A stretch of 54,079 bases of DNA from an uncultured Methanosarcinales archaeon (GCA_964501945.1 CAZCTY010000003.1:1-54079), one strand, 5' to 3'. Positions 8,723 through 49,440 are shown, numbered from the stretch's first letter. Numbers and translations: made by a program. Notes: generated by a model not told the origin, from the sequence alone.

Positions 8723-9676
8723 TCACAAAAAGCCAATAAGTAACAAAGCCACAAAATAACCCACAAAACAACCCGCACTAATAAAAGGCATCGCAGGATA
8801 ATACCTGTCTTTTTTCCCAAAAACAAACAAGAATAACAAAGAAACACCCGCAAAAAAAGAAATTAAAAAAGCATAACCAAACGCAACAGAACTAGAAAAA
8901 CCAGCCTCCAATAACTGAACCAAGAAAACAGCTGCAAAAATTAGAGGAAACGCAATATCCCCCCCGCCAAGAATACCCATCCTAACACCTTTAGATTTAT
9001 TTTTAGATTTACCTGATCGAGAAGACTTGCTTACATGAGAGGAAGTTATAGAACCAGATTTTTCATTATACGCCAAAGATAAACCAGGAAATAAATTCGC
9101 ACTTTTAGCAAACTTCGCCATCTCAACCATGTGCTTACTCTTCCAAACAGCATACGCATCATAAATACTAACCAAAATTAAAAGAACAATAGCATAAAAA
9201 ACATTAAGCAAAGGCGCCAACAATAAAGCAATACCAGGATAAATAAAAATCTCAGTTAAATTATGAATAATCAAACCAGACCTATAAATCTTCCAAGCAC
9301 CAAGAATTAAAGCAAGAAGCCAACCTAAAAGAGAACTTTGAGTTAAAACACCAAAAGACACACTCATAGTTATAACAGATGCTAAAAAAAACCAATGCTT
9401 CCAAATATTCACCTTATTTAAACGAGATAATAATAAAAGAATCACAGTACCAATAAAAACACCAATAACTATAGCAAAAATAGTCTCCTCACCCTCAACA
9501 TCAGGCCTCTCACCAACAGTAGTATTAGAAAAAACCACTTCTCGAACAACAACCTCATCCTCAACAGATGTAACAATGTCAGAACCCAAAATAACAAGAC
9601 CTAAACCAATTACCTGAGTTATTAAAAACAAACTCATAAAAAAAATGAGTACTTGCTGGGAATGCTTCATCACCAT
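8723..9676 (-). CDS. Presenilin-family intramembrane aspartyl protease (PSH)
   Basis: About 9 TM segments with YD (SIYDAYAVW), GxGD (LGGGD) and PAL-like (PAMP) motifs. Confidence 0.88.
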   Translation of the reverse strand: MVMKHSQQVLIFFMSLFLITQVIGLGLVILGSDIVTSVEDEVVVREVVFSNTTVGERPDVEGEETIFAIVIGVFIGTVILLLLSRLNKVNIWKHWFFLASVITMSVSFGVLTQSSLLGWLLALILGAWKIYRSGLIIHNLTEIFIYPGIALLLAPLLNVFYAIVLLILVSIYDAYAVWKSKHMVEMAKFAKSANLFPGLSLAYNEKSGSITSSHVSKSSRSGKSKNKSKGVRMGILGGGDIAFPLIFAAVFLVQLLEAGFSSSVAFGYAFLISFFAGVSLLFLFVFGKKDRYYPAMPFISAGCFVGYFVALLLIGFL

Positions 9677-19300: not shown

Positions 19301-19882
19301 TATCTCAGCCTCATTCATCTTTTCCTCGACTCTTTGAAGCTCCCTTAGCGCTTTTTGCTTCTTATTCTCATAAATACTAATACCTGCGATTTCTTCAATG
19401 ATCTGCCTACGCTCATTACCAGACATTTCAACTAATTTAACAATATCCCCTTGCAAAATAATATTATAACCATCAGGATTTATTTTCGCCTTGCTTAACA
19501 AATCAAGAATTTGATTCCGCGTAACCGATTTATCATTAACCTTATACACAGACTGACCACTACTTTTAACAAGACGCGTAATTTTTATAACCTCGTCCTC
19601 GCCACCAAAAACCTTGTTAGAATTATCAAAGAAAATAGAAACCTCACCTTCTTTTGCAGGCTTTTTTGTCTTACCACCATTATAAATTAAATTAGCAGTT
19701 TTTTCAGCACGCAACCCCTTCGCCCCAGCCTTACCCAAAACAAAACAGAGCGCATCCAAAATATTAGACTTGCCAGAACCGTTAGGACCTAGAACGCAAT
19801 TAAAGTCATCACTAAAAGGCACCTCTATTTTCCTAGCAAATGATTTAAACCCCTTTAATTCAATCTTAAGTATTTTAGTCAT
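16397..19882 (-). CDS. smc: Chromosome segregation protein SMC
   Basis: GFKSF, Walker A GPNGSGKSN, Q-loop ILQGD, coiled coils, hinge (ATFIPLNKI; TMSGDL...GAMQGG), LSGGEK, ILDEVDAALD, ISH. Confidence 0.97.
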   Translation of the reverse strand: MTKILKIELKGFKSFARKIEVPFSDDFNCVLGPNGSGKSNILDALCFVLGKAGAKGLRAEKTANLIYNGGKTKKPAKEGEVSIFFDNSNKVFGGEDEVIKITRLVKSSGQSVYKVNDKSVTRNQILDLLSKAKINPDGYNIILQGDIVKLVEMSGNERRQIIEEIAGISIYENKKQKALRELQRVEEKMNEAEIILTERKAHLKELKSDRDKALKFKDLDEKIKRNKATVLFDELNTKEKKSSQLDADVKKLSDEISKAEGRVQSSREKIDSLKKQVDDINKEIEQKGEREQVELQKEIEKIKVDLAVNKQRVSTIDVELEKIEARRKELSSSFEETDSKLKILIKSKKEAETEIKNKELEIERIDKKIEEFRKKNKLEDASEIDKKIEEADNNIESLQEKVNSLRESQQDIIREKDKVENKLNTIDEKINKLLSVKKEHKEALDKLKSMKTEFKKTASELNQALSEDASISAQLSTAHNKLLSKKEELAKLEARTAALREQTAGGQAIKEVLDLNLKGVYGVISELGNVKSEHSLALEIAAGARINSIVTDSDETAAKCINHLKKSKTGVATFIPLNKIKTAGVNESLRGLKGRGVVGLALDLVSFDKKYEKAFQFVFGNTLVVEDVSSARKIGVGGTRMVTMSGDLVEVSGAMQGGHRHRAKKAGFVEKETKDAIVKLSEEISDLESVNSRLTQSRKDNDELINRLREFKANLEGDIIKLEKSLRLESDDMDADRSVKKELQESLKKLDGEYEDVSSKISAANSELARAKIEKQKLREQINQLRNPALLAELTSYEQKKSELKNKIVELRGDIKNSNYQIESVLGPEKESTSNIFKQLDREEKDFLGERKNLLSSIKSQEKDLVLKEGKQKKFYEKFKGLFKKREDFSKKIGDEEAKILKENEFVRIREQKVNAQNLENAALKSEVARIKVELEDYEGVAPYKDKDIAAVKKEIKEFEKMLDDFGSVNMRALDVYDSVEREYQKLHEKKEKLKIEKEDVLVMINEVDSKKKELFLKTYDVVNHNFKEIFNTLSTKGEATLNLENPKDIFENGLTIKVKLSGTKYMDIRSLSGGEKTLTALAFLFAVQEHDPAAFYILDEVDAALDKKNSERLARLVKQYSKRAQYIIISHNDAVINEADTLFGISMNEHGESKVTSLKI

Positions 19883-35180: not shown

Positions 35181-36023
35181 TCACTTATCAGCTCCCCCAT
35201 CAGCCTTTTTATCAGAACCTTTATTATCAGCGCTTTCTGATTTTTTAGATTCAACTTCTGATTTTTCTTCAGCTTTTTTATCAGAAGAAGCATCTTTAGG
35301 AGTTGCCTTTTGATCATCTTCTTTTTGCTTAACATCACCAGCTTTTTCATCGCTCTCAGATTCTTTTTTGCTCTCAGCTACTTCTTTTTTATCAGCCGGT
35401 TTTTCGTCATCCGCGCTTTTACTCTCTTCTTTTTTATCAGCTGCAACTTCTTTTTCATCAGGTTTAGATTTTTTATCAGCAGTAACTTTCTCTTTTTGAA
35501 GTTCACTAGCCTCAGCTAAAGCCCTCTCAGGATGAGCCTCATTGTTAAATTTAGAACCTGGAATAAAAGAAATAGACTCTTGCTCAGAAATTTTAACCAA
35601 GTAACCAGGCGCAGTAATTTTAGTGCCATTAACAGCGATATGCCTATGCGTAATCATCTGCCTTGCTTGCTTAATAGTTCTAGCCAAACCTTTCTTTAAA
35701 ACAACTGTTTGAAGCCGCCTGTCTAAAAGCTGCTCAACATCAAGCCCGAGGATTTCATCAAGCTCCTCACTACTAATTAAACCATATGATTTCATCCTCT
35801 CAACCATTTGCTTTTTCTCAGCAGACGCTTGAGCGGTCTTAGATGCAACCAAGTGCTTAGCAGTGTCTTTAAAATTCTTAAGCTTAGAAGAAACTTTCCA
35901 AAGCTCTTTTTTATTAACCAAACCATACTCCTTCATCAAAGGTCTCTCAGCATCCAACCTAAGTTTTTCCCATGGATGAATAGGAGTTCTATACTTGTTT
36001 TTTAATTTTCTAGGATCGCCCAT
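35181..36023 (-). CDS. rps4: 30S ribosomal protein uS4 with a ~110-aa charged low-complexity C-terminal extension
   Basis: [33 protein letters not shown], then a K/D/E/S/A-rich tail. Confidence 0.95.
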
Positions 36024-38933: not shown

Positions 38934-39995
38934 CTAAAACAAGCCACCTAAAAGCAACCCAAACACGAAGTCAGCTGCAAAGAATAAAAAGAAAGAAACC
39001 GCGAAGTATGGAACGAAGTACTTAAACCCCTCTTTAGGCGACCCCTTCCTAATAACACCTATTATGAGCGAGGAGAAAAAAGATGAAAATAAAAGCATGA
39101 CCCCTGAGAAAATACGAAACTCATTAATAGAAATACTATCCCCCGCCAAGTCTAATGAAAAAAAACCACCAGAACCCTGATCAACATCCATACTATCAGT
39201 AAGCGAGGAAATAACAACTAGTAACTGACCACTTAATGCAAGCAGAATAGGCGCGCCGATAATAGCTGCAACAGTTATAAAAATAACATACGTAGTAACA
39301 CTAGAACTAATCTCTTTTTTCATAAGCTTAACATCTTGCATGTTAGATGAAATCTGATTTAACAAAAAACCAATCTCCCCACCCGCGCGCATACCTTCAA
39401 TCAATAAATTAATAGCTTCTTTTAGCGCCTCAGAGTCATATTTATTAGAAAAGTCAACTAACGCCTTTTCAAGATCATCCCCTGCAATCGTAAATTTTGC
39501 AACATCCTCAATTTCTTTAGCCAAAACACCAAACTTAGGACGCACAGCGAACCACAACGCCCTATCAATAGTCATACCCGCGCTAATATTTGCAGAAGTT
39601 AATTGCAAAAACTCAGGGAGAACCTCCTCAATCTCCCGCGTCCTTTTATACACACGAGAATCATAATAAAAGAAAACAGCAAGAAGAGAAATTAAATAAA
39701 CGCCAACTAAAATAACAGTCCAAATAGATAATAAAACATAAATCACTTGCTCAATGAACGAGCCTAAAAAGACACTTACAGCAATAACACCAATAGATAA
39801 AACACCACAAAAGATAGTAGAAAATAAAACAACATTCCTATGAATTTGAGAAGGCGTAGCCTCAGAACCCGCCTTAACTAAAAACTCAGATAATAAACTG
39901 CGAATACTCTTTTTATTAGCACGCTTACGCTTATCAAACTTACTCAATTTACTTTTTTTATATTCAACGTCCTCACTCTTTTTTTTCTTAAACAT
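38934..39995 (-). CDS. tadC: Type II secretion F-domain pilus platform protein (TadC-like)
   Basis: IEEVLPEFLQLTSANISAGMTIDRAL, G.LAKEI, INLLIEGMRAGG, several TM segments. Confidence 0.88.
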   Translation of the reverse strand: MFKKKKSEDVEYKKSKLSKFDKRKRANKKSIRSLLSEFLVKAGSEATPSQIHRNVVLFSTIFCGVLSIGVIAVSVFLGSFIEQVIYVLLSIWTVILVGVYLISLLAVFFYYDSRVYKRTREIEEVLPEFLQLTSANISAGMTIDRALWFAVRPKFGVLAKEIEDVAKFTIAGDDLEKALVDFSNKYDSEALKEAINLLIEGMRAGGEIGFLLNQISSNMQDVKLMKKEISSSVTTYVIFITVAAIIGAPILLALSGQLLVVISSLTDSMDVDQGSGGFFSLDLAGDSISINEFRIFSGVMLLFSSFFSSLIIGVIRKGSPKEGFKYFVPYFAVSFFLFFAADFVFGLLLGGLF

Positions 39996-39998
39996 TTT

Positions 39999-40805
39999 CT
40001 ACGTACTAATACTAGGCCTTGATGATTTTATTATATTAAGGAACATGAACTGAATAAACCCTAAAAAACCAGCAATGAATAATAAAATAGGCAAACCAAT
40101 TTGCAACCCCAAAAACGTTGCAAGAACAACAATCATAGTAACACCTAAAGAAGGAACAATTATCGCAATCATCATATAAAACATCGCCAAAGGATTAAGC
40201 TTTTTACCATACTCTTGAACACTAATTTTTTGCTCTTTCATAATTTGATCAATAACAGACCTAAGACTCAAACCAATATTCCCACCAGTTTTTATAGAGT
40301 TTAAAATTTGCCACAAAACCTTCCTCAAATTATTAGAAGGCGTTGTAACCATCGTCTCATTAATAGCATCCTCTAAGTTAGTTCCCAAATAAACTTTATT
40401 AATAATATCACCAAAATAAACCCCAATTATCTTATAGTTCTTCTCAACATTCTTAATCGCATCATATAAAGGAATACCAGATTCAATTTCAATAATTAAA
40501 AAACGACCAGCATAAACAATTTCCTTATCAATCTCTCGCTTAACCTGCTCTATTTTTACATCAACATAACCAAGAAAATAAAAATAAAACATAGGCACAA
40601 GAATAAAAACACTCAAAAAAACCAAGAAAGATGTTAAAAACATAAATAAGATTATAGCAAGAACAAAGGATAACAAAATAGAATTAAAAAAAGTTTTTTT
40701 AACATATTCCTCAGGCTCATCTTTAATACCTGCCTGAAATAATTTAGTTTTCAAACCAGTATTACTCCTTGCAAGCACCTCAAAAAACTTATCCATAAAA
40801 CACAA
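39999..40805 (-). CDS. tadB: Type II secretion F-domain pilus platform protein (TadB-like)
   Basis: EIDKEIVYAGRFLIIEIESG, GTNLEDAI, NSIKTGG, IIVPSLG, several TM segments. Confidence 0.85.
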   Translation of the reverse strand: MCFMDKFFEVLARSNTGLKTKLFQAGIKDEPEEYVKKTFFNSILLSFVLAIILFMFLTSFLVFLSVFILVPMFYFYFLGYVDVKIEQVKREIDKEIVYAGRFLIIEIESGIPLYDAIKNVEKNYKIIGVYFGDIINKVYLGTNLEDAINETMVTTPSNNLRKVLWQILNSIKTGGNIGLSLRSVIDQIMKEQKISVQEYGKKLNPLAMFYMMIAIIVPSLGVTMIVVLATFLGLQIGLPILLFIAGFLGFIQFMFLNIIKSSRPSIST

Positions 40806-40817
40806 CCCTCAAAAAAA

Positions 40818-42488
40818 TTAATCTTCTTTAAACAACTCGTTTTTATTAACAAAACGCATCAAGTTATTTTTATCAGTATAAAACTCAGCCATTATACGAC
40901 CAACACCATCAACAGTATCAATTTTTTTATTAACTAAATACTTTAAAATCTTAATTTTCTCAGCCATATCTTTTTTAAATTCCCTATCAGATACCCCCGT
41001 AAATAATTTAAGATTCTCTTTGAAAGTTTTAGATTTACCAACCTCAACTAAAGTATCTTTTCTATGATCATATTGCAATATGACATTAACATCACCTGTA
41101 GGCGTTATCTCAGCTATTTGAAAAGTTCTACGAGTACCAGTGCGCCTATTTCTAAATTGAACAATTACTAAAGATATCGCAGGCAACATAATCTTAGGCA
41201 CATTTAGAGGAGAATTAGTTAAACGCTCAACTGTTTCTTTAGCATTATTCGCGTGAAATGTAGCATACGCAGAATGACCTGTGTGAATCGCCTCAAACAA
41301 AGTATCAGTTTCTTTACTACGACGAACCTCCCCAACAAGAATACGATCAGGACGCATCCTCAAACTATTAACCAATAAGTCCTGCATCGAAATCTCGCCC
41401 TTCCCCTCAGGATTTGCAAGAACAGTATTTAAAGGAACCCAATGAAGAAACTTAGGAAGCTGAATTTCACGAGTATCCTCAATACTAATTATACGCTGAT
41501 TTGGAGGAAAAAAACCAGAAAAAACACTAAGCGCAGAAGTTTTACCAGAAGCAGTACCACCAGCAATTAAAGCAGACATCTCATATTGAATAGCAGTCCA
41601 AATGAGCGCGGCAGCCTCATATGAAATCGTTTTATACTTTAAAAATTTAGTAATCGTCCAAGGATCTTTACTAAATTTACGAATAGTAATAGTATTACCC
41701 TCAGTGCTTACAGGGTAGAGAGTCGCATTCACACGATCACCCTCATCGAGATGAGCATCCAATAAAGGATTTAACACAGTTATCTGACGACCAACCTTAC
41801 GACCAATGATACTCGCATAATGCTTAATTTGCTCCTCGTCTTTTACTAAAACCGTCGTTTTAAGCCAACCATGCTTTTTATGATATACCCAAACAGGCTC
41901 AGAACCTTGATTTATTACAATTTCTTCTAATAATTCATCAGCCATTAACAATTCCAAAGAACCAAGACCTAAACTTTTCATTTTAAGATATGTTGATAAA
42001 AATTTCTCAGTCTCCTCATCGCTTTCAGGAAAGTACTTTTTTATCAAAACATTAATCATATACTCAAACTTATCCTCAACAACATCAGCTTTTTTATAAT
42101 CGCTAATCTCAGCTATACCAAGATTAACACGCCTAATAAGTTCTTTTCTAACACCTTCAAGAATCGCCTCAGTAGTAGGACTTATAGCAGAAATTTCTAA
42201 ATTATAAATAGGAACAAAATCACCTTTTTTCCTATTAACAAATATATTAATCGTAATACCCTCAACAATGTACGAATAAGAATCAATATTCTCCGATTTC
42301 ATCTTAGCACTTGATTTCGCAACATTTTTTTTAGCAGAAACAGCTTTTTTAGAACCTTTAGATTTAGATGATGCAACAATGTTTTTTTTAACATTCTTTT
42401 TTTTAACAACTGATTTTTTAACAGCTTTTTTAACTGGTTTTTTTACCGGTTTTTTTGCTTTAACATTTTTTTTCTTACTTGCAACCAT
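40818..42488 (-). CDS. cpaF: Pilus assembly ATPase (CpaF/TadA/VirB11 family) with a Lys-rich N-terminal extension
   Basis: Walker A GGTASGKTS, Asp box SIEDTRE, Walker B LRMRPDRILVGEVR, His box HTGH...TFHA. Confidence 0.93.
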   Translation of the reverse strand: MVASKKKNVKAKKPVKKPVKKAVKKSVVKKKNVKKNIVASSKSKGSKKAVSAKKNVAKSSAKMKSENIDSYSYIVEGITINIFVNRKKGDFVPIYNLEISAISPTTEAILEGVRKELIRRVNLGIAEISDYKKADVVEDKFEYMINVLIKKYFPESDEETEKFLSTYLKMKSLGLGSLELLMADELLEEIVINQGSEPVWVYHKKHGWLKTTVLVKDEEQIKHYASIIGRKVGRQITVLNPLLDAHLDEGDRVNATLYPVSTEGNTITIRKFSKDPWTITKFLKYKTISYEAAALIWTAIQYEMSALIAGGTASGKTSALSVFSGFFPPNQRIISIEDTREIQLPKFLHWVPLNTVLANPEGKGEISMQDLLVNSLRMRPDRILVGEVRRSKETDTLFEAIHTGHSAYATFHANNAKETVERLTNSPLNVPKIMLPAISLVIVQFRNRRTGTRRTFQIAEITPTGDVNVILQYDHRKDTLVEVGKSKTFKENLKLFTGVSDREFKKDMAEKIKILKYLVNKKIDTVDGVGRIMAEFYTDKNNLMRFVNKNELFKED

Positions 42489-42492
42489 AAAA

Positions 42493-43641
42493 TCACACCT
42501 TTAAATCATCAAGCAAAGACCTAATCTTTTTGAAAAGCTTTCCTTTAGCCTCTTCTTGCTTTTTAATCTCAGCATCAATCTCACGAGCTTGAGATTTCAA
42601 ATTAGCATTAGAACTCATAAGTTTTAGAGCCCTCGCTTTCTCTTTAACACTTAAAAGCCGTCTTCGCAACTCATCTTTTTCCTTGTCAATTTCATCAATC
42701 TTTTTAGATATACGAATTGTTTTATCAAAAAAGCCCTCAAAGCTCCCCTTAATTTTTTTACCAAGATACTCATAACTCTCAAGCTTTGATGCTTTTCTTT
42801 TAGCATCTTTGAGCAGAGCATCTTGCCTATCAGATAATTTTTTAGTCTCTTTTTCAAATAAAGACGAAATAGTACCAATTTTTTTCTTTTTATCAATAAC
42901 AACCCGCTCACTTAAAGCGTTAAATTCAGCTTTTAACTTATCAAAAGAATTAACCCTGCTTTTAAAAACAGATTCTTCATGAGATAAATCTTTTTTAAGC
43001 TTGAATAAAACCTCATTAGCAGACTTAATAGAATCAGAAATGTCTTTTTGAGCTTTTTGAAGAGAAGAAATTCTTTTTTTATGCTCATCAATAGCTTCTT
43101 TTTCTTTTACGATTTTAGTATAAATCTTTAAATAATCACTCTCTCTTTTTTTCAACTCATCATCAAGATTTGAAATCTCTGTTTTAAACTTCTTTTTTTG
43201 TTCCTCAATTTCTCTATCAACATTAGTTTTTAATTTGTTGTACTTCTCTAAATCAGCGAGCTCCTTTTCAACAATTTTTAATTCTTTTTTAACGCCTTCT
43301 TGAACATCACTAAATTTCTTTTTTATCTCCTCAAAATTAACAGATTCACGCTCAAGAGACGCAATAGCATATTCAACTTTATTGACAAAAGCATCTTTTT
43401 CATAAACAATCTCTTTAGCAGATTGCTTCATCTCTTTAGCAGATAATTTTCTCTCAGTAAAATAAACTTTAGAAAACGAATAATCAATACTTATCAAACG
43501 CTCTCGTTCTAAAAATTCAGCCCACTCACGAACAATATCCTTACTTACACCAAGCGCTTTTGAGGCATCCTCTAAACTAATCTTCTTAGATTCTTGAATA
43601 ATCTCTATAAGCTTATCAGCACCGGTTTTGATCCTCTTCAT
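42493..43641 (-). CDS. N-terminal winged-HTH plus long coiled-coil protein, coupled to the pilus ATPase gene
   Basis: IKTGADKLIEII...ISLEDASKALGVSKDIVREWAEFLE HTH, then about 300 aa of heptad-like K/E-rich sequence. 4-bp gap to the ATPase. Confidence 0.7.
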   Translation of the reverse strand: MKRIKTGADKLIEIIQESKKISLEDASKALGVSKDIVREWAEFLERERLISIDYSFSKVYFTERKLSAKEMKQSAKEIVYEKDAFVNKVEYAIASLERESVNFEEIKKKFSDVQEGVKKELKIVEKELADLEKYNKLKTNVDREIEEQKKKFKTEISNLDDELKKRESDYLKIYTKIVKEKEAIDEHKKRISSLQKAQKDISDSIKSANEVLFKLKKDLSHEESVFKSRVNSFDKLKAEFNALSERVVIDKKKKIGTISSLFEKETKKLSDRQDALLKDAKRKASKLESYEYLGKKIKGSFEGFFDKTIRISKKIDEIDKEKDELRRRLLSVKEKARALKLMSSNANLKSQAREIDAEIKKQEEAKGKLFKKIRSLLDDLKV

Positions 43642-43744
43642 AAAAACCCTCAATAATACCCTCTTTTTAAAAAAATCAAAAAGTTATAGTAATTTATAAA
43701 AATTGCTTGCTTAAATAGTTTTCGCACAACAGCAACTAAATGAA

Positions 43745-44701
43745 CTAGCCGACAATCGGACACGAAGTAGTGCTTGATAAATCATCAATCTCATACAAAC
43801 TAACCCTGTTCGATGGAATTATAAAATAATATTCCGCGCTTATTTCCTCAAAGCAGACACCGTCAGATTCTAAATTGTTAAAGTAAATATAATCAACTTT
43901 GACCCTGTTTTCATAAACAGGAACATTTTGATCAGAGATTAATAAAATATTGACAACGCTCTCAATACCCGCAGAGCTCGGCGTTAAATTATTGCTAAAT
44001 CTTTGAATAAAACTAGGCGCACTCTCAGATTCAACGTAATAAGAACTTCCAACAAGAGATTCCATATTGGTTGCAGAGTCCCCCTCAGATAAATTAGAAG
44101 GAAAAGGACGCACAGTATTATAAAAACGATTCTGTGTAAAAACTGCATACAACGGATCCCTCAGATTTTCAATAGGAACTTCAGATTTATAATCATTAGA
44201 AAAATGCCAAGAAACCAAATTAGATTTATCTTGAACAGAAACATTAGCAGCAACGACTACATCAACCAGCCAAGGATCGGATTGAGATAAACTTATATCA
44301 TCAACAACCACATCAACTTCTAAACCAAACCTATCCCCAATTATGTTAATCCTCTCTAAATAAACAAGAATACTAGAATTTTCCATGAGCTTTGAGGGAA
44401 CCCCATTAATAGAACCATTATAAACAATTTCAGAAAAATAATCTTCAGTATTGTTTAGAAAACTGCCAGATAAAGCAACGTGTTCTTCTAAAGCAATTAA
44501 AGACCTGAAAGATGCAATCCTAATAGCCCTCTCTAAATCTTGATTAAAACCCTTAACAAAATCATTTGCAAAATTAACCCTGCGCTGATCTGCAACAGTA
44601 GCATCAGAGAAAGTATATTGATCAAATGTTAAAAAAACAACTAATAAAATAATAACAAGCAGAATAGATGATAAAATAAAAATAAAACCTTTTTTGTTCA
44701 T
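43745..44701 (-). CDS. Class III signal-peptide (pilin-like) surface protein, 318 aa
   Basis: MNKKG|FIFILSSILLVIILLVVFL. 4-bp overlap with the upstream gene. Confidence 0.75.
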   Translation of the reverse strand: MNKKGFIFILSSILLVIILLVVFLTFDQYTFSDATVADQRRVNFANDFVKGFNQDLERAIRIASFRSLIALEEHVALSGSFLNNTEDYFSEIVYNGSINGVPSKLMENSSILVYLERINIIGDRFGLEVDVVVDDISLSQSDPWLVDVVVAANVSVQDKSNLVSWHFSNDYKSEVPIENLRDPLYAVFTQNRFYNTVRPFPSNLSEGDSATNMESLVGSSYYVESESAPSFIQRFSNNLTPSSAGIESVVNILLISDQNVPVYENRVKVDYIYFNNLESDGVCFEEISAEYYFIIPSNRVSLYEIDDLSSTTSCPIVG

Positions 44702-47457
44702 GAAACCACCTCAACTTCTGCAATAGACGGCCCCCACATATAAGGAATACTGCCAACAGTGGTTAGACGAATCTCTAAATCCGAAGCATCCAAATCAACG
44801 ATTATCTCGCCCTCATTTAAAGGATCGAGTTGATCTAATAAACTAAGCATAGCAAAATCATAAGCATCACGCGAGTTAAAATCGCCAAAGTCAAAAGAGG
44901 AATTATAAACACAATTCTTACCACCCTCATAATATTCAGGGATAGGAATGTCTAAAACAGAGCCAGTGATTGTATCAACAGTCCAAGAACAACCATCCGC
45001 GAATTCTAAAGAATCAGTACGATCAGTTACAGCAGGCAGAAGAGCAGTATAAACAAATTTATTATGCTCACTACACCCAGTCCTATTTTCAGGCGAATCA
45101 CCCGTCTCAACAGTTATGGTGTTCAACCCTTCATTCAACAACCCCTCAGGGATTCTAACAGAGAATGGATCACCTAAACGAAAATAAGGCGCGTAATAAT
45201 CAGATAAATTAAACGCAGTAACACCATTCACAATCACAGTATCAGTCCAATGAGCGCCAGAATAACTAGTAATTTCAGCTTCAACAACATCTAAACCAGG
45301 ATAAATATTAACATGACTCGTACAACTATCATTAGATAAGTCCTCCTCAAATACCATGCTTATTTTACCCGGATCAGGTTGTTTTTCTAAAGGATTATAT
45401 TTAAAATCAATACGAGAATCATCATAAATAGATGAAGGCGCCAAATCACCTTGAATTGTAACAGACTGATTAACTTGATCAACCCTTGTTAAAATTTCAT
45501 ATGAAATATTATCATAAATTAAACGCAACTCATCAACATCACTACTATGCTGATACGTACCATTGCCCATGTCCGCAATTTCCTCAAGCAAAAGACCTGC
45601 CCGCTCACACTCATCCATTAAACCAAAGCCAATAGTGAAAACAGTAGCATTAAACTTTTCAATTAAACGATTAGCAGAAAACCTAACACTATCCTCTGCC
45701 TGCAAGCAACGCTCATCATCTAAAAAACAACCAATCTTATTATCAACATCACAACTACCACCATCATTACAATAACCTGCGCAAATCTCTTGACCATACC
45801 TTGTTAAAATACTGCTACAACCGCCTTGAGGACAATGAGTAGGTGAACCATCACTCATTAAAACAATAAAAGTAGACCTATTTTTTTTATCGTTTGCCTC
45901 AAGCAAATCATACGCCTCATTTAAAGCGCAGGAAATACAAGCCTCACCCTGACCTTGAGGACCATACTTAGAAATATGATCCATGATTGCAACCTTATCT
46001 TCAGGATTATTATAAGATGTAATCCTATTCCTATGATACACAACAGGCCAAATCCTATTACCAGCATAATCTAGAACTGTATCAACTAATTCATTAGCCA
46101 AACACCTAGCCAAATGAGATTTTCTCGCATCAGAATACTCATATAATTCATCGCACCTAGAAATACCCGTACCTTGACTATCCCATGATGAAACAGAATT
46201 AAACATACTACCACTAAAATCAGTTATAACAACAACATCCGCATTACCCCCCTCAAATTCCTCAGAGAAAGATTCATATGCAGCAAACCTTAAAGGAACA
46301 GTATTCTGACTAAGTTGATCATAATCAAAATTAGCTTCTTCAAGCAAAAAATTATTACTTATCTCAACTTTAAAGTTATCTCCCACTTGCTCATATGAGA
46401 CATCATTTAAGATATCGTCCTCACCACCAGTATTCATCATTAAAATACGCTCACCAATAGTAATATACGCGCTTTGAGATGTGTTAAAATTTAAAAAAAT
46501 ACTCATCTCCTCTAAATCCCCAGGGACAAAAAAGGAATCGTAAATATTAGCAATACCATCAACACCATGAAAGTTATACGAAGATTCACCATACTCAAAA
46601 GGCTTTTGAAGTTCATCAGTCCTATAATCTATCCTAAGAAGACCACCTGATACTGAAGAAGTTGTCAAATCACCTAAAAAAGATATAGAAAAATTATTCC
46701 TGCCAGGCAAAATTAAATTAGCACAATGAGGCAAATACCAAGAATCAACAACTAAAGAACCGCTCTGCTTAAATGTCTCATTAATTAAAGAATTACCACA
46801 TAGCTGACCGTTAATATATAACAAAAAATCACTTTGAAAATCACCTTCTAAATAAATATTATCAACCCTGGATATACCCGAACGATTAATATCCTGAGGA
46901 AGATCTTTTATAAAAAAAGAAACATTCCCCTGCCCAATAAAACCACCAAAGTAATGATACGAACTAGTTTTTTTATCCCTAATTCTTCGAAGATATGCAG
47001 AAGCACTAGTACCTGCTAAAGGCCTGCCCCTCTCAATACCAGCAATCATCCTTCTTGCAACAGAGACATCCCTTAATTTACCCTCACCAAACGAGTGAAT
47101 AAGCTCACCACCCATCTTTAATTTTATTTCTTTATCAGAAACATTTAGAGATGAGAGCGCAAAGACAGCTAAATCCTCGGCCCGAGATGGATAATCAAGC
47201 GCCCAATACTTACCAATTTGCTCAAGCACACTAATTTCAAAATCATCAATGGATGAAATTAAATGAGAAGGCATAGAATCTTCTACATCAGACAATTTAA
47301 TTGATGAGAGCGCAATTAACAAATCCTCACTTAAATAATTTTTAGAAGTGTATGAGGAATCATAAAAAGGATTCACAATGATTAAAGCTAACGCCCCCGT
47401 TATTAAAATACCTGCGAGCATAGCATCAATAGAGTAATAAATACCTTTTTTTCTCAT
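44698..47457 (-). CDS. Large class III signal-peptide protein with a von Willebrand A domain, putative pilus adhesin
   Basis: MRKKG|IYYSIDAMLAGIL. vWA motifs DVVVITDFSGSM (MIDAS DxSxS), FIVLMSDGSP, VFTIGFG, with Cys-rich inserts. Start 47457 gives a 4-bp overlap (track start 47463). Confidence 0.82.
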   Translation of the reverse strand: MRKKGIYYSIDAMLAGILITGALALIIVNPFYDSSYTSKNYLSEDLLIALSSIKLSDVEDSMPSHLISSIDDFEISVLEQIGKYWALDYPSRAEDLAVFALSSLNVSDKEIKLKMGGELIHSFGEGKLRDVSVARRMIAGIERGRPLAGTSASAYLRRIRDKKTSSYHYFGGFIGQGNVSFFIKDLPQDINRSGISRVDNIYLEGDFQSDFLLYINGQLCGNSLINETFKQSGSLVVDSWYLPHCANLILPGRNNFSISFLGDLTTSSVSGGLLRIDYRTDELQKPFEYGESSYNFHGVDGIANIYDSFFVPGDLEEMSIFLNFNTSQSAYITIGERILMMNTGGEDDILNDVSYEQVGDNFKVEISNNFLLEEANFDYDQLSQNTVPLRFAAYESFSEEFEGGNADVVVITDFSGSMFNSVSSWDSQGTGISRCDELYEYSDARKSHLARCLANELVDTVLDYAGNRIWPVVYHRNRITSYNNPEDKVAIMDHISKYGPQGQGEACISCALNEAYDLLEANDKKNRSTFIVLMSDGSPTHCPQGGCSSILTRYGQEICAGYCNDGGSCDVDNKIGCFLDDERCLQAEDSVRFSANRLIEKFNATVFTIGFGLMDECERAGLLLEEIADMGNGTYQHSSDVDELRLIYDNISYEILTRVDQVNQSVTIQGDLAPSSIYDDSRIDFKYNPLEKQPDPGKISMVFEEDLSNDSCTSHVNIYPGLDVVEAEITSYSGAHWTDTVIVNGVTAFNLSDYYAPYFRLGDPFSVRIPEGLLNEGLNTITVETGDSPENRTGCSEHNKFVYTALLPAVTDRTDSLEFADGCSWTVDTITGSVLDIPIPEYYEGGKNCVYNSSFDFGDFNSRDAYDFAMLSLLDQLDPLNEGEIIVDLDASDLEIRLTTVGSIPYMWGPSIAEVEVVS

Positions 47458-47948
47458 CGCCATGTTAACACCACCATGTTTACAATTTGAGAATCAAGAA
47501 CAACTATTCTCTCAACCCACGCCCTATCATCGTGATTAACATAAACCTCAGGCACCTCACAACCATCAAAATGAAAACCTCTAACACACTCACCGTTAAC
47601 TTCCATTATACCAGACGCGTTTTTAAAATATAACCAATATTCCCCAGATACATGAAAGAGCGCCTTAGTCCTCTCATATGAAAACGAATCAAACTTATCT
47701 AGCTTAGACATATTAATTTGACCCTCCGACAATATGCCAGGCATTACAACAGATGAATAATTCCAATCACTAGGAAACCCCTCAGACATTAAACTAACAG
47801 AAATTAAATCAGCCTCCCTACTAACAACATCATAATCAGAGCGAGCATCAATAGATTGTAATAAATTTATAGCAATAATTAATAAGAATACAAACATCAA
47901 AAAACCCGCCAAGTAATCAAATATCCATGTCTGGGCTTTTTTAGTCAT
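47454..47948 (-). CDS. Class III signal-peptide minor pilin-like protein
   Basis: MTKKA|QTWIFDYLAGFLMFVFLLIIAI. Confidence 0.78.
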   Translation of the reverse strand: MTKKAQTWIFDYLAGFLMFVFLLIIAINLLQSIDARSDYDVVSREADLISVSLMSEGFPSDWNYSSVVMPGILSEGQINMSKLDKFDSFSYERTKALFHVSGEYWLYFKNASGIMEVNGECVRGFHFDGCEVPEVYVNHDDRAWVERIVVLDSQIVNMVVLTWR

Positions 47949-48358
47949 TGAGCAGCCTCCACGAATACGTGATCTTCTAATTTCGATATTTTTAATCTCC
48001 CAGGACTTATCTCTCCCAGAGTTAGAGGAATAACCTCAAAAAAAACAATGTCATCAACAATTAATTCAAAATACCCCGTACCAATCTTAGTACTGCCAAG
48101 AATAACTTCATAATCACGACCATCAATAGTTCTTGGAAGATACAACTCCCTAGTGTACCCCTCCTCAGCGTTTGATGCGAAACTAATTTCTTGCTTTAAA
48201 GATAAAGTTAAATCCTCCGCCAATATCAAAACCCGCTCATCTTGCTTATCAGATAGTATCTGAGATAGTATAATTGCAAAAATAATCATAGTAAATAAAG
48301 CAACCCCAGTAACTAACATAAATTCTAAACCAACCTGCCCTCTTCTTTTAAAAAACAT
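47945..48358 (-). CDS. Class III signal-peptide pilin-like protein
   Basis: MFFKRRG|QVGLEFMLVTGVALF (Glu at +5). Start 48358 preferred over the track's 48400. Confidence 0.8.
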   Translation of the reverse strand: MFFKRRGQVGLEFMLVTGVALFTMIIFAIILSQILSDKQDERVLILAEDLTLSLKQEISFASNAEEGYTRELYLPRTIDGRDYEVILGSTKIGTGYFELIVDDIVFFEVIPLTLGEISPGRLKISKLEDHVFVEAAQ

Positions 48359-48359
48359 A

Positions 48360-48776
48360 TCACTTATCCTCAATGTAAACCAAATCTTCAAAAGATTCAA
48401 ACCTAATTACATGACTCCCTGGAAAAGGCTTTAATTCACCTGCAAGCCTCGCAGGCGTATGTTTTTCAACATAAAAAACACCATCACTAGTTTGAATTTC
48501 AAAAATTATATCATGCTCATTAATCATAATCGTTTCTATACCACGAGGGAATTGAACCCTTAAAGTTTTTTGAGCAGGAGGACCTTGAAAATAAATTTCC
48601 TCAGCAGAATCAATTATCCTAGTCATAGCGTTTTCAGCTTGAGCGTATGCAATATCTGCCTCAATATTATCAGTTTGAGTCGCAAACAAAATTATTAACG
48701 GAATTAACATTAAAGCTGCAACAGAGAAAATTGCAAGATACTCTATACTCACCTGCCCCTTTTTTTTGAAAAACAT
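48360..48776 (-). CDS. Class III signal-peptide pilin-like protein (QxSxEY type)
   Basis: MFFKKKG|QVSIEYLAIFSVAALML. The track's 64-aa N-terminal extension spans the divergent promoter region and is rejected. Confidence 0.82.
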   Translation of the reverse strand: MFFKKKGQVSIEYLAIFSVAALMLIPLIILFATQTDNIEADIAYAQAENAMTRIIDSAEEIYFQGPPAQKTLRVQFPRGIETIMINEHDIIFEIQTSDGVFYVEKHTPARLAGELKPFPGSHVIRFESFEDLVYIEDK

Positions 48777-48990
48777 CCAAATAAAGCTTAAATACCCAAG
48801 TATATAAATTTTTAGAAAAAAAGCAAACCATGCCTGAGACCTAAACATAACAAAAATTAGAATAATAATGTATATAAATATACAAAAAACCTCAAAAACG
48901 GAAAGTTTTATATATGAAAAAGAATCTAAAAGAAGAATACTTGGTAAAAAACTAGTAATAATTACCAAAAAAATTTCAGAGGTGAAACAA

Positions 48991-49440
48991 ATGAAGAAAA
49001 AAGGACAAGCAGCAATGGAATTCTTAATGACCTATGGATGGGCAATCTTAGTAGTAATCGCGGCAATCGCAGCATTAGCATACTTTGGAGTATTAAGCCC
49101 ACAAAACTTAGTGCCAGAGAGAACAACATTCCAAGCACCGCTACCGAACATCGACAAAGCATTAATAGAAGAAGATGGACGAGTAGAAATTGCTTTTAGA
49201 AACAATGTAGGAGTACAAATAAACGTAACAGACGTTAGAACAGGAGACTGTGATGCTCCAACAGAAGCTCTAGGAACAATAAATAACGGAGAAACATTCC
49301 TAGTAGAATGGGACTGCGAGAACGACTTTGAAGGCGAAGTCGGAGATAGATTCTCAGCGGACCTAGGCTTTGAATACATCAACCTAGAAACAGGCCAAAC
49401 AAGAAGACACACAGGAACTGTTGACGGAAGATACGAATAA
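48991..49440 (+). CDS. Candidate major type IV pilin, divergent from the minor-pilin operon
   Basis: SD GAGGTGA, then MKKKG|QAAMEFLMTYGWAILVVIAAIAALAYFGVL. Confidence 0.85.
   Translation: MKKKGQAAMEFLMTYGWAILVVIAAIAALAYFGVLSPQNLVPERTTFQAPLPNIDKALIEEDGRVEIAFRNNVGVQINVTDVRTGDCDAPTEALGTINNGETFLVEWDCENDFEGEVGDRFSADLGFEYINLETGQTRRHTGTVDGRYE

What the first reader, a model, noticed from the sequence alone, without database searches (positions are those of the whole stretch)
38934..49440. Pilus locus with six class III signal-peptide proteins, a large vWA adhesin and an unexplained cytoplasmic partner
Seen: five tightly coupled minus-strand genes (4-bp overlaps or a 1-bp gap), each starting with a basic K/R-K/R-G/A cleavage motif and a hydrophobic helix. 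A 91-bp spacer follows, then wHTH-coiled-coil, ATPase and two T2SS-F genes. A sixth pilin with a strong SD is transcribed divergently. The signal peptides form a graded series: Glu at +5 (QAAME, QVSIE, QVGLE), Asp at +6 (QTWIFD, IYYSID) and no acidic residue (FIFILS). Known: archaeal type IV pili use class III prepilins, a VirB11-like ATPase and TadC-like platform proteins. Inference: this is an ordered tip complex (adhesin plus minor pilins) on a major-pilin fibre for host attachment by a small symbiont. No prepilin peptidase and no archaellum-specific accessory genes are in the window.
Basis: partly seen in the sequence, partly recalled or inferred. Interest (0 to 1): 0.72.

Follow-up and report, generated by a model that had tools for sequence, protein, structure and literature searches.

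The report
DPANN type IV pilus locus
This is a complete, widely conserved adhesive type IV pilus gene cluster of a tiny symbiotic (Woesearchaeota-type) archaeon, and its previously unexplained cytoplasmic gene encodes a winged-helix/coiled-coil protein that works with the pilus motor ATPase.

Summary
Ten genes at 38934-49440 encode a FlaI/TadA-type ATPase, two single-domain T2SS-F platform proteins, a winged-helix/coiled-coil protein and six proteins with K/R-K/R-G/A plus hydrophobic-helix N-termini. One of the six is a 919-aa vWA protein with an intact MIDAS motif.

The gene order recurs in about 20 Woesearchaeota/Nanoarchaeota MAGs. The N-terminal series is conserved in every orthologue group:
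- Q1/E5 in the major pilin and two minor pilins.
- Q1 plus D/E6 in p164.
- Non-Q plus D6 in the vWA protein.
- No acidic residue in p318.

In bacteria, lack of the +5 acid marks the apical PilK/GspK subunit. vWA-pilin fusions (TadG/CpaL) sit at Tad pilus tips. The tip-complex reading is therefore well founded, but it is still inferred.

New here: the partner's acidic winged helix is fused to the ATPase N-terminus in six relatives, stands alone in others, and lies next to this ATPase clade almost without exception. It is therefore an ATPase accessory module and is unlikely to be a DNA-binding regulator. At least 384 clusters carry it, and Pfam has no family for it.

No A24 prepilin peptidase lies in the window or in relatives' flanks.

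Verdict: a known kind of system (archaeal Epd/Tad-like pilus) with an undescribed accessory. Moderate interest.

The parts
48991..49440 (+). Candidate major pilin (149 aa), KKG|QAAMEFLMTYGWAIL..., transcribed divergently
   Evidence: Its first ~30 mature residues are almost invariant over 28 orthologues or paralogues while the C-terminal head varies. Relatives carry 1-3 tandem copies. GAGGTGA lies at 48979-48985. No PDB or Pfam family matches.
48780..48990 (.). AT-rich divergent intergenic region with TATA-like boxes on both strands
   Evidence: Read directly: TTTTATATA near 48905-48913 on the + strand, and TTTATATA on the - strand near 48822-48815. Promoter function is inferred.
48360..48779 (-). 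Minor pilin p139, KKG|QVSIEYL (Q1, E5)
   Evidence: Q1/E5 is present in all 16 orthologues where the motif could be read. PF04021 Class_IIIsignal is sub-threshold at 18.5 bits. Conserved first gene of the block.
47945..48358 (-). Minor pilin p137, RRG|QVGLEFM (Q1, E5)
   Evidence: Q1/E5 is invariant over 16 orthologues. PF04021 scores 16.3 bits. 1-bp gap to p139.
47454..47948 (-). Minor pilin p164, KKA|QTWIFD (Q1, acidic residue at +6)
   Evidence: Q1 plus D/E at +6 is conserved in 13 of 14 orthologues as called; the L024 motif call is off-register. 3 N-glycosylation sequons and 2 Cys.
44698..47457 (-). vWA adhesin with pilin-like N-terminus, KKG|IYYSID (no Q, D6), MIDAS DFSGS at residue 413, conserved C-terminal strand
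   Evidence: VWA is found in 12 of 13 orthologues. The profile hits Mfa5 (3e-12), SpaC (1.5e-7) and 7w6b. The xYxxxDA motif is conserved in 15 of the 16 orthologues where it could be read (L032 differs). The C-terminal IPYLWGPSxxEVxVW is the third most conserved 15-mer. 15 sequons and 18 Cys.
43745..44701 (-). p318, large pilin-like protein with no Q1 and no acidic residue in the N-terminal helix (candidate apical, PilK/GspK-like subunit)
   Evidence: AF2 pLDDT 95: helix 3-78 followed by an alpha/beta head. No acidic residue at +5/+6 in the 17 orthologues with a reliable motif call, including two second-locus paralogues. 101 homologue clusters: no Pfam family, no informative source name, and DPANN organism wherever a source names one, apart from one MAG labelled Alphaproteobacteria. 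No PDB match. 6 sequons and a conserved C-terminal Cys pair.
43642..43744 (-). Spacer with TTTATAAA (43700-43693), a T-run, and GAGGG (43651-43647) before the partner's ATG
   Evidence: Read. The same TATA plus AAAAGAGGG layout precedes the next gene downstream. An internal promoter is inferred.
42493..43641 (-). Partner: acidic winged helix (residues 7-63) plus long coiled-coil hairpin (68-337) plus C-terminal helix (345-381)
   Evidence: AF2 model. Foldseek finds only generic winged helices. The wH is fused to the ATPase in six relatives and sits next to the ATPase elsewhere. 384 clusters at E<1e-10 with a modal length of about 382 aa. No TM segment.
40818..42488 (-). Assembly ATPase (556 aa) with a 65-aa Lys-rich disordered N-terminal tail
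   Evidence: T2SSE 6.5e-32. FlaI model 258 bits, below its 550 cut-off, and TadA 191 bits. PDB: AfGspE2 227 bits, FlaI 191, CpaF 167.
39999..40805 (-). Platform protein 1 (TadB-like, one T2SSF domain)
   Evidence: PF00482 1.3e-15. Conserved position in the locus.
38934..39995 (-). Platform protein 2 (TadC-like, one T2SSF domain)
   Evidence: PF00482 1.5e-12. Weak ArlJ C-terminal-half match.

Best explanation
The locus encodes an Epd/Tad-like archaeal type IV pilus of a Woesearchaeota-type DPANN archaeon. It is organised as three units.

1. A divergently transcribed major pilin gene.

2. A translationally coupled five-gene block, p139-p137-p164-vWA-p318. Its products, after class III processing, form the initiation/tip complex.
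- p318 has no acidic residue in its N-terminal helix and is the apical, PilK/GspK-like subunit.
- The vWA protein is a TadG/CpaL-like pilin-adhesin fusion that presents a MIDAS site.
- The vWA protein may be locked in place by its conserved C-terminal beta-strand.
- The E5/D6-bearing minor pilins connect this cap to the Q1/E5 major-pilin fibre.

3. A motor operon, partner-ATPase-TadB-like-TadC-like.
- The partner's acidic winged helix docks on, or acts with, the N-terminal side of the hexameric ATPase.
- Its roughly 20-nm coiled-coil hairpin serves as a cytoplasmic scaffold, spacer or adaptor, functionally comparable to ArlX, TadZ or GspL-type accessories.

Shown: gene content, domain identities, conserved synteny, the conserved N-terminal pattern, and the wH-ATPase fusions.

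Inferred: processing, subunit order, physical wH-ATPase contact, the role of the coiled coil, and host attachment.
For: Machine:
- T2SSE ATPase and two single-domain T2SSF proteins.

Synteny:
- The order p139-p137-p164-vWA-p318-partner-ATPase-plat1-plat2 recurs in L002, L004, L007-L010, L013, L014, L019, L022, L024, L039 and L040. Major pilins lie upstream (divergent or co-oriented) or downstream of the locus.

N-terminal series:
- It is conserved within each orthologue group.
- PilK-family apical minor pilins 'invariably lack' the +5 Glu (PMC12918778).

vWA protein:
- The MIDAS motif is intact.
- The profile matches pilus-tip adhesins Mfa5 and SpaC.
- The extreme C-terminus is as conserved as the MIDAS motif. 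This parallels the C-beta licensing strand of PilY1/CpaL (PMC12918778).
- CpaL/TadG is a pilin-vWA fusion at Tad tips (PMC12607857).

p318:
- Modelled at pLDDT 95 with a 75-residue N-terminal helix.

Extracellular signature:
- Sequons run at 1.6-1.9 per 100 aa and Cys pairs occur in p164, vWA and p318. The motor proteins have 0-0.4 sequons per 100 aa.

Partner:
- The wH is fused to the ATPase N-terminus in L016, L017, L018, L021, L023 and L035.
- It is a 68-aa standalone protein in a second locus in L008, L009 and L020.
- It follows a Lys-rich region in a protein upstream of the ATPase in L032 and L034.
- In all five partner-seeded contigs with enough flank, T2SSE plus two T2SSF genes follow.
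- The wH is acidic (pI 4.4-5.3) with recognition helix xxVxEWAEFLEKE.
- Length is held near 382 aa despite about 30% identity.
- The predicted hairpin turn coincides with the only indel site in the alignment.
Against: - No prepilin peptidase lies in the window or within 10 kb of the related loci. Processing is therefore unproven.
- PF04021 hits are all below threshold.
- The p318 head has no significant structural match to GspK, PilX or any solved pilin, and no multimer model could be run.
- The acidic residue is at +6 rather than +5 in two proteins, which the bacterial rule does not cover.
- The partner model is only of moderate confidence (pLDDT 74.5, pTM 0.38), so the hairpin could instead be an extended dimer.
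- One distant partner homologue (P0128, L038) follows three CheY-like receiver genes with no ATPase immediately downstream on a short contig.
- Makarova et al. 2016 placed archaeal minor pilins at the pilus base by analogy with the archaellum.
Confidence: 0.7

Rival explanations
1. The partner is a DNA-binding transcription factor, an autoregulator of the pilus operon. Its coiled coil serves only for dimerisation.
For: The N-terminal domain is a winged helix by AF2 and Foldseek, with ArsR, MarR and TFE-like hits. It gives sub-threshold MarR and DeoR Pfam hits. Makarova 2016 lists many regulators in T4P loci. It sits just downstream of a promoter-like spacer.
Against: The domain is acidic (net -2 to -7) with an acidic recognition helix. 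It is covalently fused to the ATPase N-terminus in six MAGs. It is translationally coupled to the ATPase by a 4-bp gap. A roughly 310-residue coiled coil of conserved length is atypical for a regulator.
Confidence: 0.12
2. The five-gene block forms a basal or anchoring complex, or stays membrane-anchored, rather than forming a tip. The vWA protein anchors the fibre or senses at the membrane, as once proposed for TadG and as drawn for archaeal minor pilins by analogy with the archaellum.
For: Makarova 2016 (PMC4858521) places minor pilins near the base and cites TadG as a possible membrane anchor. No peptidase is seen nearby. The vWA protein and p318 lack the Q1 that marks the likely EppA-type substrates.
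Against: The pattern of presence and absence of the acidic residue is conserved and fits the apical-subunit rule (PMC12918778). The vWA profile matches tip adhesins. More recent work puts CpaL/TadG at the tip (PMC12607857, PMC12918778).
Confidence: 0.15
3. The machine is used mainly for something other than host adhesion, for example DNA or nutrient uptake or secretion (Com-like, bindosome-like or pseudopilus-like).
For: DPANN depend on external nucleotides. Type IV filaments are functionally plastic (preprint 10.64898/2026.04.22.720090). There is a single ATPase and no retraction paralogue.
Against: No substrate-binding protein, ABC transporter or ComEC/ComEA-like gene appears in the locus or in the conserved flanks that were inspected. 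A MIDAS-bearing vWA protein with variable propeller-like inserts is typical of adhesins.
Confidence: 0.1
4. It is an archaellum (motility) locus.
For: The best NCBIfam hit of the ATPase is FlaI. Platform 2 weakly matches ArlJ.
Against: The FlaI score of 258 bits is far below the 550 cut-off. None of the ten locus proteins matches an archaellin or ArlF/G/H/CDE/X family. The platform is split into two genes.
Confidence: 0.02

Closest known systems
Epd pilus of Methanococcus maripaludis / archaeal TFF 'system 1' (Makarova clade 1)
   Same: Two separate TadC-like platform genes. Several minor pilins with Q at +1 and E at +5 (QxSxEY-type, former DUF361). Large adhesin-like proteins encoded in the locus. 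System 1 is reported in some DPANN (preprint 10.64898/2026.04.22.720090).
   Different: No EppA peptidase in the locus. The candidate major pilin has a roughly 110-aa globular head, unlike the headless ~70-aa EpdE type. The adhesin is a vWA protein rather than a DUF2341 protein. The wH-coiled-coil partner is not described for that system. ATPase clade membership was not tested.
Bacterial Tad (type IVc) pilus: CpaF/TadA, TadB, TadC, Flp, TadE/F, TadG/CpaL
   Same: Split TadB/TadC-like platform. A GxxxxE[YF] pilin N-terminus. A pilin-like N-terminus fused to a MIDAS vWA domain with a conserved extreme C-terminus, as in CpaL/TadG. A single ATPase related to CpaF (167 bits).
   Different: No secretin, TadZ or TadV. 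Five accessory pilin-like proteins rather than three. The ATPase is closer to archaeal GspE2 and FlaI than to CpaF. The pilins carry globular heads.
Bacterial T4aP/T2SS initiation complex (PilH-I-J-K plus PilY1; GspH-I-J-K)
   Same: A five-gene operon of small pilin-like proteins plus a large vWA adhesin. One large subunit lacks the conserved N-terminal acid. The adhesin has a conserved C-terminal strand. Some orthologues add propeller-like repeats, as in PilY1.
   Different: No detectable sequence or fold homology. The adhesin itself has a pilin-type N-terminus. The acid is at +6 in two subunits.
Archaeal TFF subsystems 4F and 4A
   Same: 4F loci carry an intracellular coiled-coil protein (arCOG07564, 'SMC homolog') or a CBS protein. 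4F-type ATPases were noted in nanoarchaea without cognate pilins (PMC4858521). 4A in some DPANN has two platform proteins plus a PilY-like adhesin (preprint). L041 has a CBS gene next to the partner.
   Different: Homology of the partner to arCOG07564 could not be tested because no sequence was at hand. Neither paper mentions a winged helix or an ATPase fusion.
ArlX (crenarchaeal archaellum scaffold), TadZ/CpaE, GspL/PilM as cytoplasmic ATPase accessories
   Same: An accessory protein encoded with, and presumably binding, the assembly ATPase. ArlX is also a coiled-coil protein.
   Different: No sequence relationship. The partner has no TM segment (unlike ArlX) and no ParA/MinD fold (unlike TadZ).

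Membership tests
Archaeal type IV filament (TFF) system | Secretion-superfamily ATPase (T2SSE) | tested here: met
   PF00437 E 6.5e-32. PDB AfGspE2 E 4e-66.
Archaeal type IV filament (TFF) system | Polytopic platform protein with T2SSF domain(s) | tested here: met
   Two genes, each with one PF00482 domain.
Archaeal type IV filament (TFF) system | Filament proteins with a class III signal peptide | tested here: inconclusive
   The motif and hydrophobic helix are present in six proteins and conserved in orthologues. PF04021 scores 11.9-18.5 bits against a 23.7 cut-off.
Archaeal type IV filament (TFF) system | Class III (A24) signal peptidase in the genome | not testable with these tools
   None in the 54-kb window or in the 10-kb flanks of relatives. 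Whole genomes were not available.
Epd-like pilus / TFF system 1 | Two platform genes next to the ATPase | tested here: met
Epd-like pilus / TFF system 1 | Dedicated EppA peptidase in the locus | tested here: not met
   Absent from the window locus and from the related loci.
Epd-like pilus / TFF system 1 | Small (~70 aa) major pilin without a globular head | tested here: not met
   The candidate major pilin is 149 aa with a variable roughly 110-aa head.
Epd-like pilus / TFF system 1 | ATPase falls in Makarova clade 1 | not tested
Bacterial Tad pilus | TadZ, a secretin and a TadV peptidase together with TadA/B/C | tested here: not met
   Only the A/B/C analogues are present.
TadG/CpaL-type pilin-vWA tip protein | Pilin-like N-terminal helix, MIDAS vWA domain and conserved C-terminal strand | tested here: met
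   Architecture only. No sequence homology outside the vWA domain. The C-terminal strand's role was not tested.
PilK/GspK-type apical minor pilin | Lacks the conserved N-terminal acidic residue | tested here: met
   p318 and its 17 orthologues with a reliable motif call have none at +5/+6.
PilK/GspK-type apical minor pilin | GspK/PilX fold | tested here: not met
   Foldseek finds no pilin hit (best E 8.5e-3, TM at most 0.3). The profile finds no PDB hit.
Archaellum | FlaI equivalog score, archaellins, ArlF/G/H | tested here: not met
   258 bits against a 550 cut-off. None of the ten locus proteins matches such a family.
MarR/ArsR-type wHTH transcription factor (for the partner) | Family HMM above threshold and a basic DNA-reading surface | tested here: not met
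   All HTH hits are below their cut-offs. The domain has pI 4.4-5.3 and an acidic helix 3.

The most novel reading that the evidence does not exclude
Two linked claims.
1. The winged-helix/coiled-coil protein is an unrecognised cytoplasmic component of DPANN type IV pilus motors. Its acidic winged helix docks on the ATPase N-terminus. Its fixed-length, roughly 20-nm coiled coil forms a scaffold or signal adaptor, possibly receiving CheY-like input.
2. The tip-initiation logic known from bacteria also operates in archaea and so predates the split of the type IV filament superfamily. That logic is an acid-less apical subunit plus an adhesin locked in by a conserved C-terminal beta-strand.
Probability: 0.35. 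Interest if true: 0.7.

Novelty: new variant of a known kind. Interest (0 to 1): 0.52.

Why it matters
DPANN archaea are thought to live attached to hosts, yet the molecules that make contact are mostly unknown.

This locus is conserved across many Woesearchaeota and Nanoarchaeota. It offers concrete candidates:
- A MIDAS-bearing vWA tip adhesin whose head varies between lineages and may determine host range.
- A defined set of minor pilins.
- A new motor accessory family with hundreds of members and no Pfam entry.

If the acid-less cap and the C-terminal-strand rule hold here, the mechanism that licenses type IV filament assembly would be shared by bacteria and archaea. The wH-ATPase fusions also give a ready-made hypothesis for how archaeal pilus ATPases recruit accessory proteins.

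Tried and rejected
- The sigma-70 promoter and terminator scan was not enriched and does not apply to archaea.
- Single-sequence and profile searches of the PDB found nothing for the major pilin, p318 or the full vWA protein outside its vWA domain.
- Foldseek of the partner returned only generic winged helices. Nothing matched the coiled coil specifically.
- Foldseek of p318 returned only weak NTF2/VirB8-like cones, so a GspK/PilX fold could not be claimed.
- NCBIfam SMC and Rad50 hits to the partner are low-score coiled-coil noise.
- A DNA-binding regulator role for the partner was considered and downgraded because of the acidic surface and the ATPase fusions.
- An archaellum was rejected.
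- The idea that the Lys-rich ATPase tail pairs with the acidic wH was considered. It is not supported, because the tail is acidic or absent in several relatives.
- A search for GxGD multi-TM proteins near related loci found only platform proteins.
- Literature searches found no description of a wH/coiled-coil T4P accessory.
- Homology to haloarchaeal arCOG07564 could not be tested.
Full report
OBSERVATION

The ten ORFs are present as described. On the minus strand they are:
- p139 (48360-48779)
- p137 (47945-48358)
- p164 (47454-47948)
- a 919-aa protein (44698-47457)
- p318 (43745-44701)
- a 382-aa protein (42493-43641)
- a 556-aa ATPase (40818-42488)
- two membrane proteins (39999-40805 and 38934-39995)

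On the plus strand, a 149-aa protein starts at 48991, behind a GAGGTGA Shine-Dalgarno sequence.

With the biologically sensible start codons, the junctions are a 1-bp gap, three 4-bp overlaps, a spacer, then gaps of 4, 12 and 3 bp. The partner's homologues are mostly 382 aa and all begin M-K/R-x-I-K-T-G. Its start is therefore ATG 43641, and the spacer is 103 bp rather than 91.

A motif scan of the whole window finds K/R-G/A plus hydrophobic-helix N-termini only in this locus, apart from two 34-44-aa junk ORFs. The strict filter missed p318. GC content is uniform across the window, so nothing suggests a foreign island.

WHAT THE PARTS ARE

ATPase and platform
- The ATPase has a T2SSE domain (E 6.5e-32).
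- Its closest solved relatives are archaeal GspE2 of Archaeoglobus (227 bits), FlaI (191) and CpaF (167).
- It misses the FlaI equivalog cut-off by a wide margin, 258 against 550 bits.
- The two membrane proteins each carry one T2SSF domain. This is the split TadB/TadC-like arrangement.

vWA protein
- The window protein scores just below Pfam's cut-off. Even so, 12 of 13 orthologues hit VWA (best E 1.8e-11).
- The D-x-S-x-S MIDAS motif is conserved.
- A profile of the family matches solved pilus-tip adhesins: Mfa5 at 3e-12, SpaC at 1.5e-7 and 7w6b.
- No other domain is recognised in its N-terminal ~390 or C-terminal ~280 residues.

Surface signature
- p164, the vWA protein and p318 are rich in N-glycosylation sequons, at 1.6-1.9 per 100 aa. 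The four motor-operon proteins have 0-0.4.
- These three proteins also carry Cys pairs.
- Both features fit a surface location.

p318
- It has 101 homologue clusters. Where a source names the organism it is a DPANN archaeon, except for one MAG labelled Alphaproteobacteria. None has a Pfam family or an informative name.
- It has no PDB relative by profile search.
- AlphaFold2 with a 59-sequence alignment gives a very confident model (pLDDT 95, pTM 0.85). Helix 3-78 is followed by an alpha/beta head with three long antiparallel strands.
- That is the general lollipop plan of a type IV pilin. Foldseek finds no significant match to any solved pilin, so no specific GspK/PilX membership can be claimed.

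Major pilin candidate
- The divergent 149-aa protein has about 30 almost invariant mature N-terminal residues (QAAMEFLMTYGWAILVVLAAIGALAYFG) and a variable head.
- It occurs in one to three tandem copies in relatives.
- This is the pattern expected of a major pilin.

RELATIVES AND SYNTENY

A scan of species-representative genomes with the ATPase returned 31 loci, 30 from DPANN-type or unclassified archaeal MAGs and one weak bacterial hit. The archaeal MAGs are labelled Woesearchaeota, Nanoarchaeota/Nanoarchaeia, Nanobdellati, Altiarchaeota or Micrarchaeota, and several are mislabelled 'Methanosarcinales'.
- BLAST of the ten window proteins against all ORFs of these loci shows the order p139-p137-p164-vWA-p318-partner-ATPase-plat1-plat2 in L002, L004, L007-L010, L013, L014, L019, L022 and L024.
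- Major pilin genes lie upstream of the block (divergent in L004 and L007-L009, co-oriented in L010) or downstream of the platform genes.
- Look-ups seeded with partner homologues are not biased by the ATPase. They give the same result in L001-L005, L039 and L040.
- L041 keeps only partner-ATPase-plat1-plat2, with a CBS-domain gene upstream.
- Some genomes (L008, L009, L020) hold a second, paralogous locus.

THE GRADED N-TERMINI

The series is not peculiar to this genome. It is a fixed property of each orthologue group across the related loci:
- Major pilin, p139 and p137 always have Q1 and E5.
- p164 has Q1 and D or E at +6.
- The vWA protein has a hydrophobic or aromatic +1 and D6, in the motif xYxxxDA, in all but one orthologue.
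- p318 has neither Q1 nor any acidic residue.

In bacterial type IV filaments, the +5 Glu contacts the N-terminus of the previously incorporated, more apical subunit. PilK/GspK homologues 'invariably lack' it and are apical (PMC12918778).

A five-gene set of small pilin-like proteins, a large acid-less one and a vWA adhesin also mirrors PilH-I-J-K plus PilY1. The pilin-vWA fusion mirrors TadG/CpaL of Tad pili, which is modelled at the tip with CpaJ and CpaK (PMC12607857).

The extreme C-terminus of the vWA protein (IPYLWGPSxxEVxVW, then the stop) is its third most conserved 15-mer, on a par with the MIDAS motif. PilY1 and CpaL use a C-terminal beta-strand to license tip-complex assembly (PMC12918778). 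I propose the same here, in cis or onto p318, whose gene overlaps by 4 bp. This is inference. No multimer prediction was available.

THE PARTNER

Structure
- AlphaFold2 gives pLDDT 74.5 and pTM 0.38.
- It predicts a winged helix (residues 7-63), two long helices (68-205 and 210-337) folded as an antiparallel hairpin, and a final helix (345-381).
- The predicted turn falls at the only indel site of the family alignment.
- Foldseek finds only generic winged helices. Pfam gives only sub-threshold HTH hits.

Domain architectures. A local HMM of the winged helix finds it in five architectures around this ATPase clade:
- wH plus coiled coil, about 385 aa, directly upstream of the ATPase. This is the commonest form.
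- wH fused to the N-terminus of the ATPase itself, in six independent MAGs (L016, L017, L018, L021, L023, L035).
- A 68-aa standalone wH after the platform genes of the second locus (L008, L009, L020).
- A Lys-rich region followed by the wH, upstream of the ATPase (L032, L034).
- A 99-aa form (L033).

Every locus with ATPase identity of at least 59% and readable upstream sequence has the module. This Rosetta-stone pattern shows that the winged helix functions with the ATPase.

Why it is probably not a regulator
- The domain is acidic (pI 4.4-5.3).
- Its 'recognition' helix reads xxVxEWAEFLEKE.
- These features, together with the fusion, argue against DNA binding and for a protein-protein role.

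Family size and shape
- A profile search of 1.84 billion representatives finds 384 clusters at E<1e-10.
- 81 of the 149 retrieved members are 370-400 aa long, despite about 30% identity in the coiled coil.
- The conserved length suggests that rod length itself is constrained.
- Variants exist with a Lys-rich N-extension, a C-terminal extra domain, or five tandem winged helices.
- One variant follows three CheY-like receiver genes. This hints at a signalling link.

The window's ATPase carries a 65-aa Lys-rich tail. Relatives carry disordered tails of varied charge.

COMPARISON WITH THE LITERATURE

- Makarova et al. 2016 (PMC4858521) describe clade 1 (Epd) loci with two TadC genes, five or more minor pilins, PilY-like adhesins and EppA.
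- The same paper reports an intracellular coiled-coil protein (arCOG07564) in halobacterial subclade 4F. It notes that 4F-type ATPases occur in nanoarchaea without identifiable pilins.
- A 2026 preprint (10.64898/2026.04.22.720090) reports system 1 and 4A-type loci with two platform genes and a PilY-like adhesin in some DPANN. It proposes that variable ATPase N-termini bind accessory proteins.
- Neither paper mentions a winged helix, its fusion to the ATPase, or the acid series. Full-text searches found no other description.

The system is therefore a known kind, an archaeal Epd/Tad-like type IV pilus. This DPANN variant has a conserved pilin-vWA adhesin, an acid-less large subunit and an undescribed ATPase accessory.

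It fails strict Epd membership on three tested features. It has no EppA in the locus, no headless ~70-aa major pilin, and a vWA adhesin rather than a DUF2341 adhesin.

OPEN POINTS

- No A24 peptidase is in the window or within 10 kb of the related loci. It must be encoded elsewhere, and this could not be checked.
- The only GxGD protease in the window is a presenilin/SPP-family protein at 8723-9676, with YD, GGGD and PAMP motifs.
- Not shown: processing, subunit order, tip location, retraction, the role of the coiled coil, and host attachment.
- The 103-bp spacer carries TTTATAAA, a T-run and GAGGG. The promoter region of the next gene has the same layout. Two transcription units on the minus strand are therefore likely but unproven.

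Noticed in passing
window 8723-9676 (-): A 317-aa, 8-TM presenilin/signal-peptide-peptidase family protein (PF06550, E 5e-15) with YD, GGGD and PAMP motifs. It is the only GxGD intramembrane protease in the window. Its substrates are unknown. Whether it could stand in for a class III peptidase is pure speculation.
   Followed up: partly
window 42294-42488 (-), the ATPase N-terminus: A 65-residue Lys-rich low-complexity tail (KKPVKKPVKKAVKK...) precedes the conserved ATPase core. Relatives have tails of variable charge, or a winged helix, at this position.
   Followed up: partly
L008 13400-21085, L009 14500-21493, L020 4692-8391: A second, paralogous pilus locus on the opposite strand, in the order vWA-p318-ATPase-plat1-plat2-68-aa wH. 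Its ATPase is about 51% identical to the window's. Some genomes therefore carry two such systems.
   Followed up: partly
L038 320-2826: A distant partner homologue (P0128: Lys-rich extension plus wH plus coiled coil, 471 aa) is the fourth gene after three tightly packed CheY-like receiver genes. This suggests a possible signalling input. The contig is too short to show whether an ATPase follows.
   Followed up: no
L002 8455-8799; L016 9064-9471; L017 4833-5204; L018 7764-8135: A small DUF192 (PF02643) gene is inserted between p318 and the ATPase or partner in several relatives. It is absent from the window locus.
   Followed up: no
L002 4005-7514: The vWA orthologue is 1169 aa. It carries about five tandem ~45-aa repeats (WTLISG...GYYW...WVSDSSR..GLGD) inserted in the vWA region, which look propeller-like. 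Other orthologues reach 1250-1425 aa, and one hits the SGL beta-propeller family. The adhesin head therefore varies between lineages.
   Followed up: partly
L041 6112-7850: In this locus a CBS-domain gene overlaps the partner's start and no minor-pilin block is present. This recalls the CBS and 'SMC homolog' neighbours reported for haloarchaeal subsystem 4F.
   Followed up: no
window 35181-36023 (-): A ribosomal protein S4-like ORF (judged from the sequence by eye) carries a C-terminal tail of roughly 110 aa rich in K, E, D and S.
   Followed up: no
window 16397-19882 (-): A full-length SMC protein (SMC_N plus hinge). It is unrelated to the pilus partner, despite the partner's weak SMC-type coiled-coil hits.
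   Followed up: partly
P0017 / L037 227-2200: A 657-aa protein made of five tandem copies of the same winged helix, separated by K/E/P-rich linkers. The short contig gives no context.
   Followed up: no
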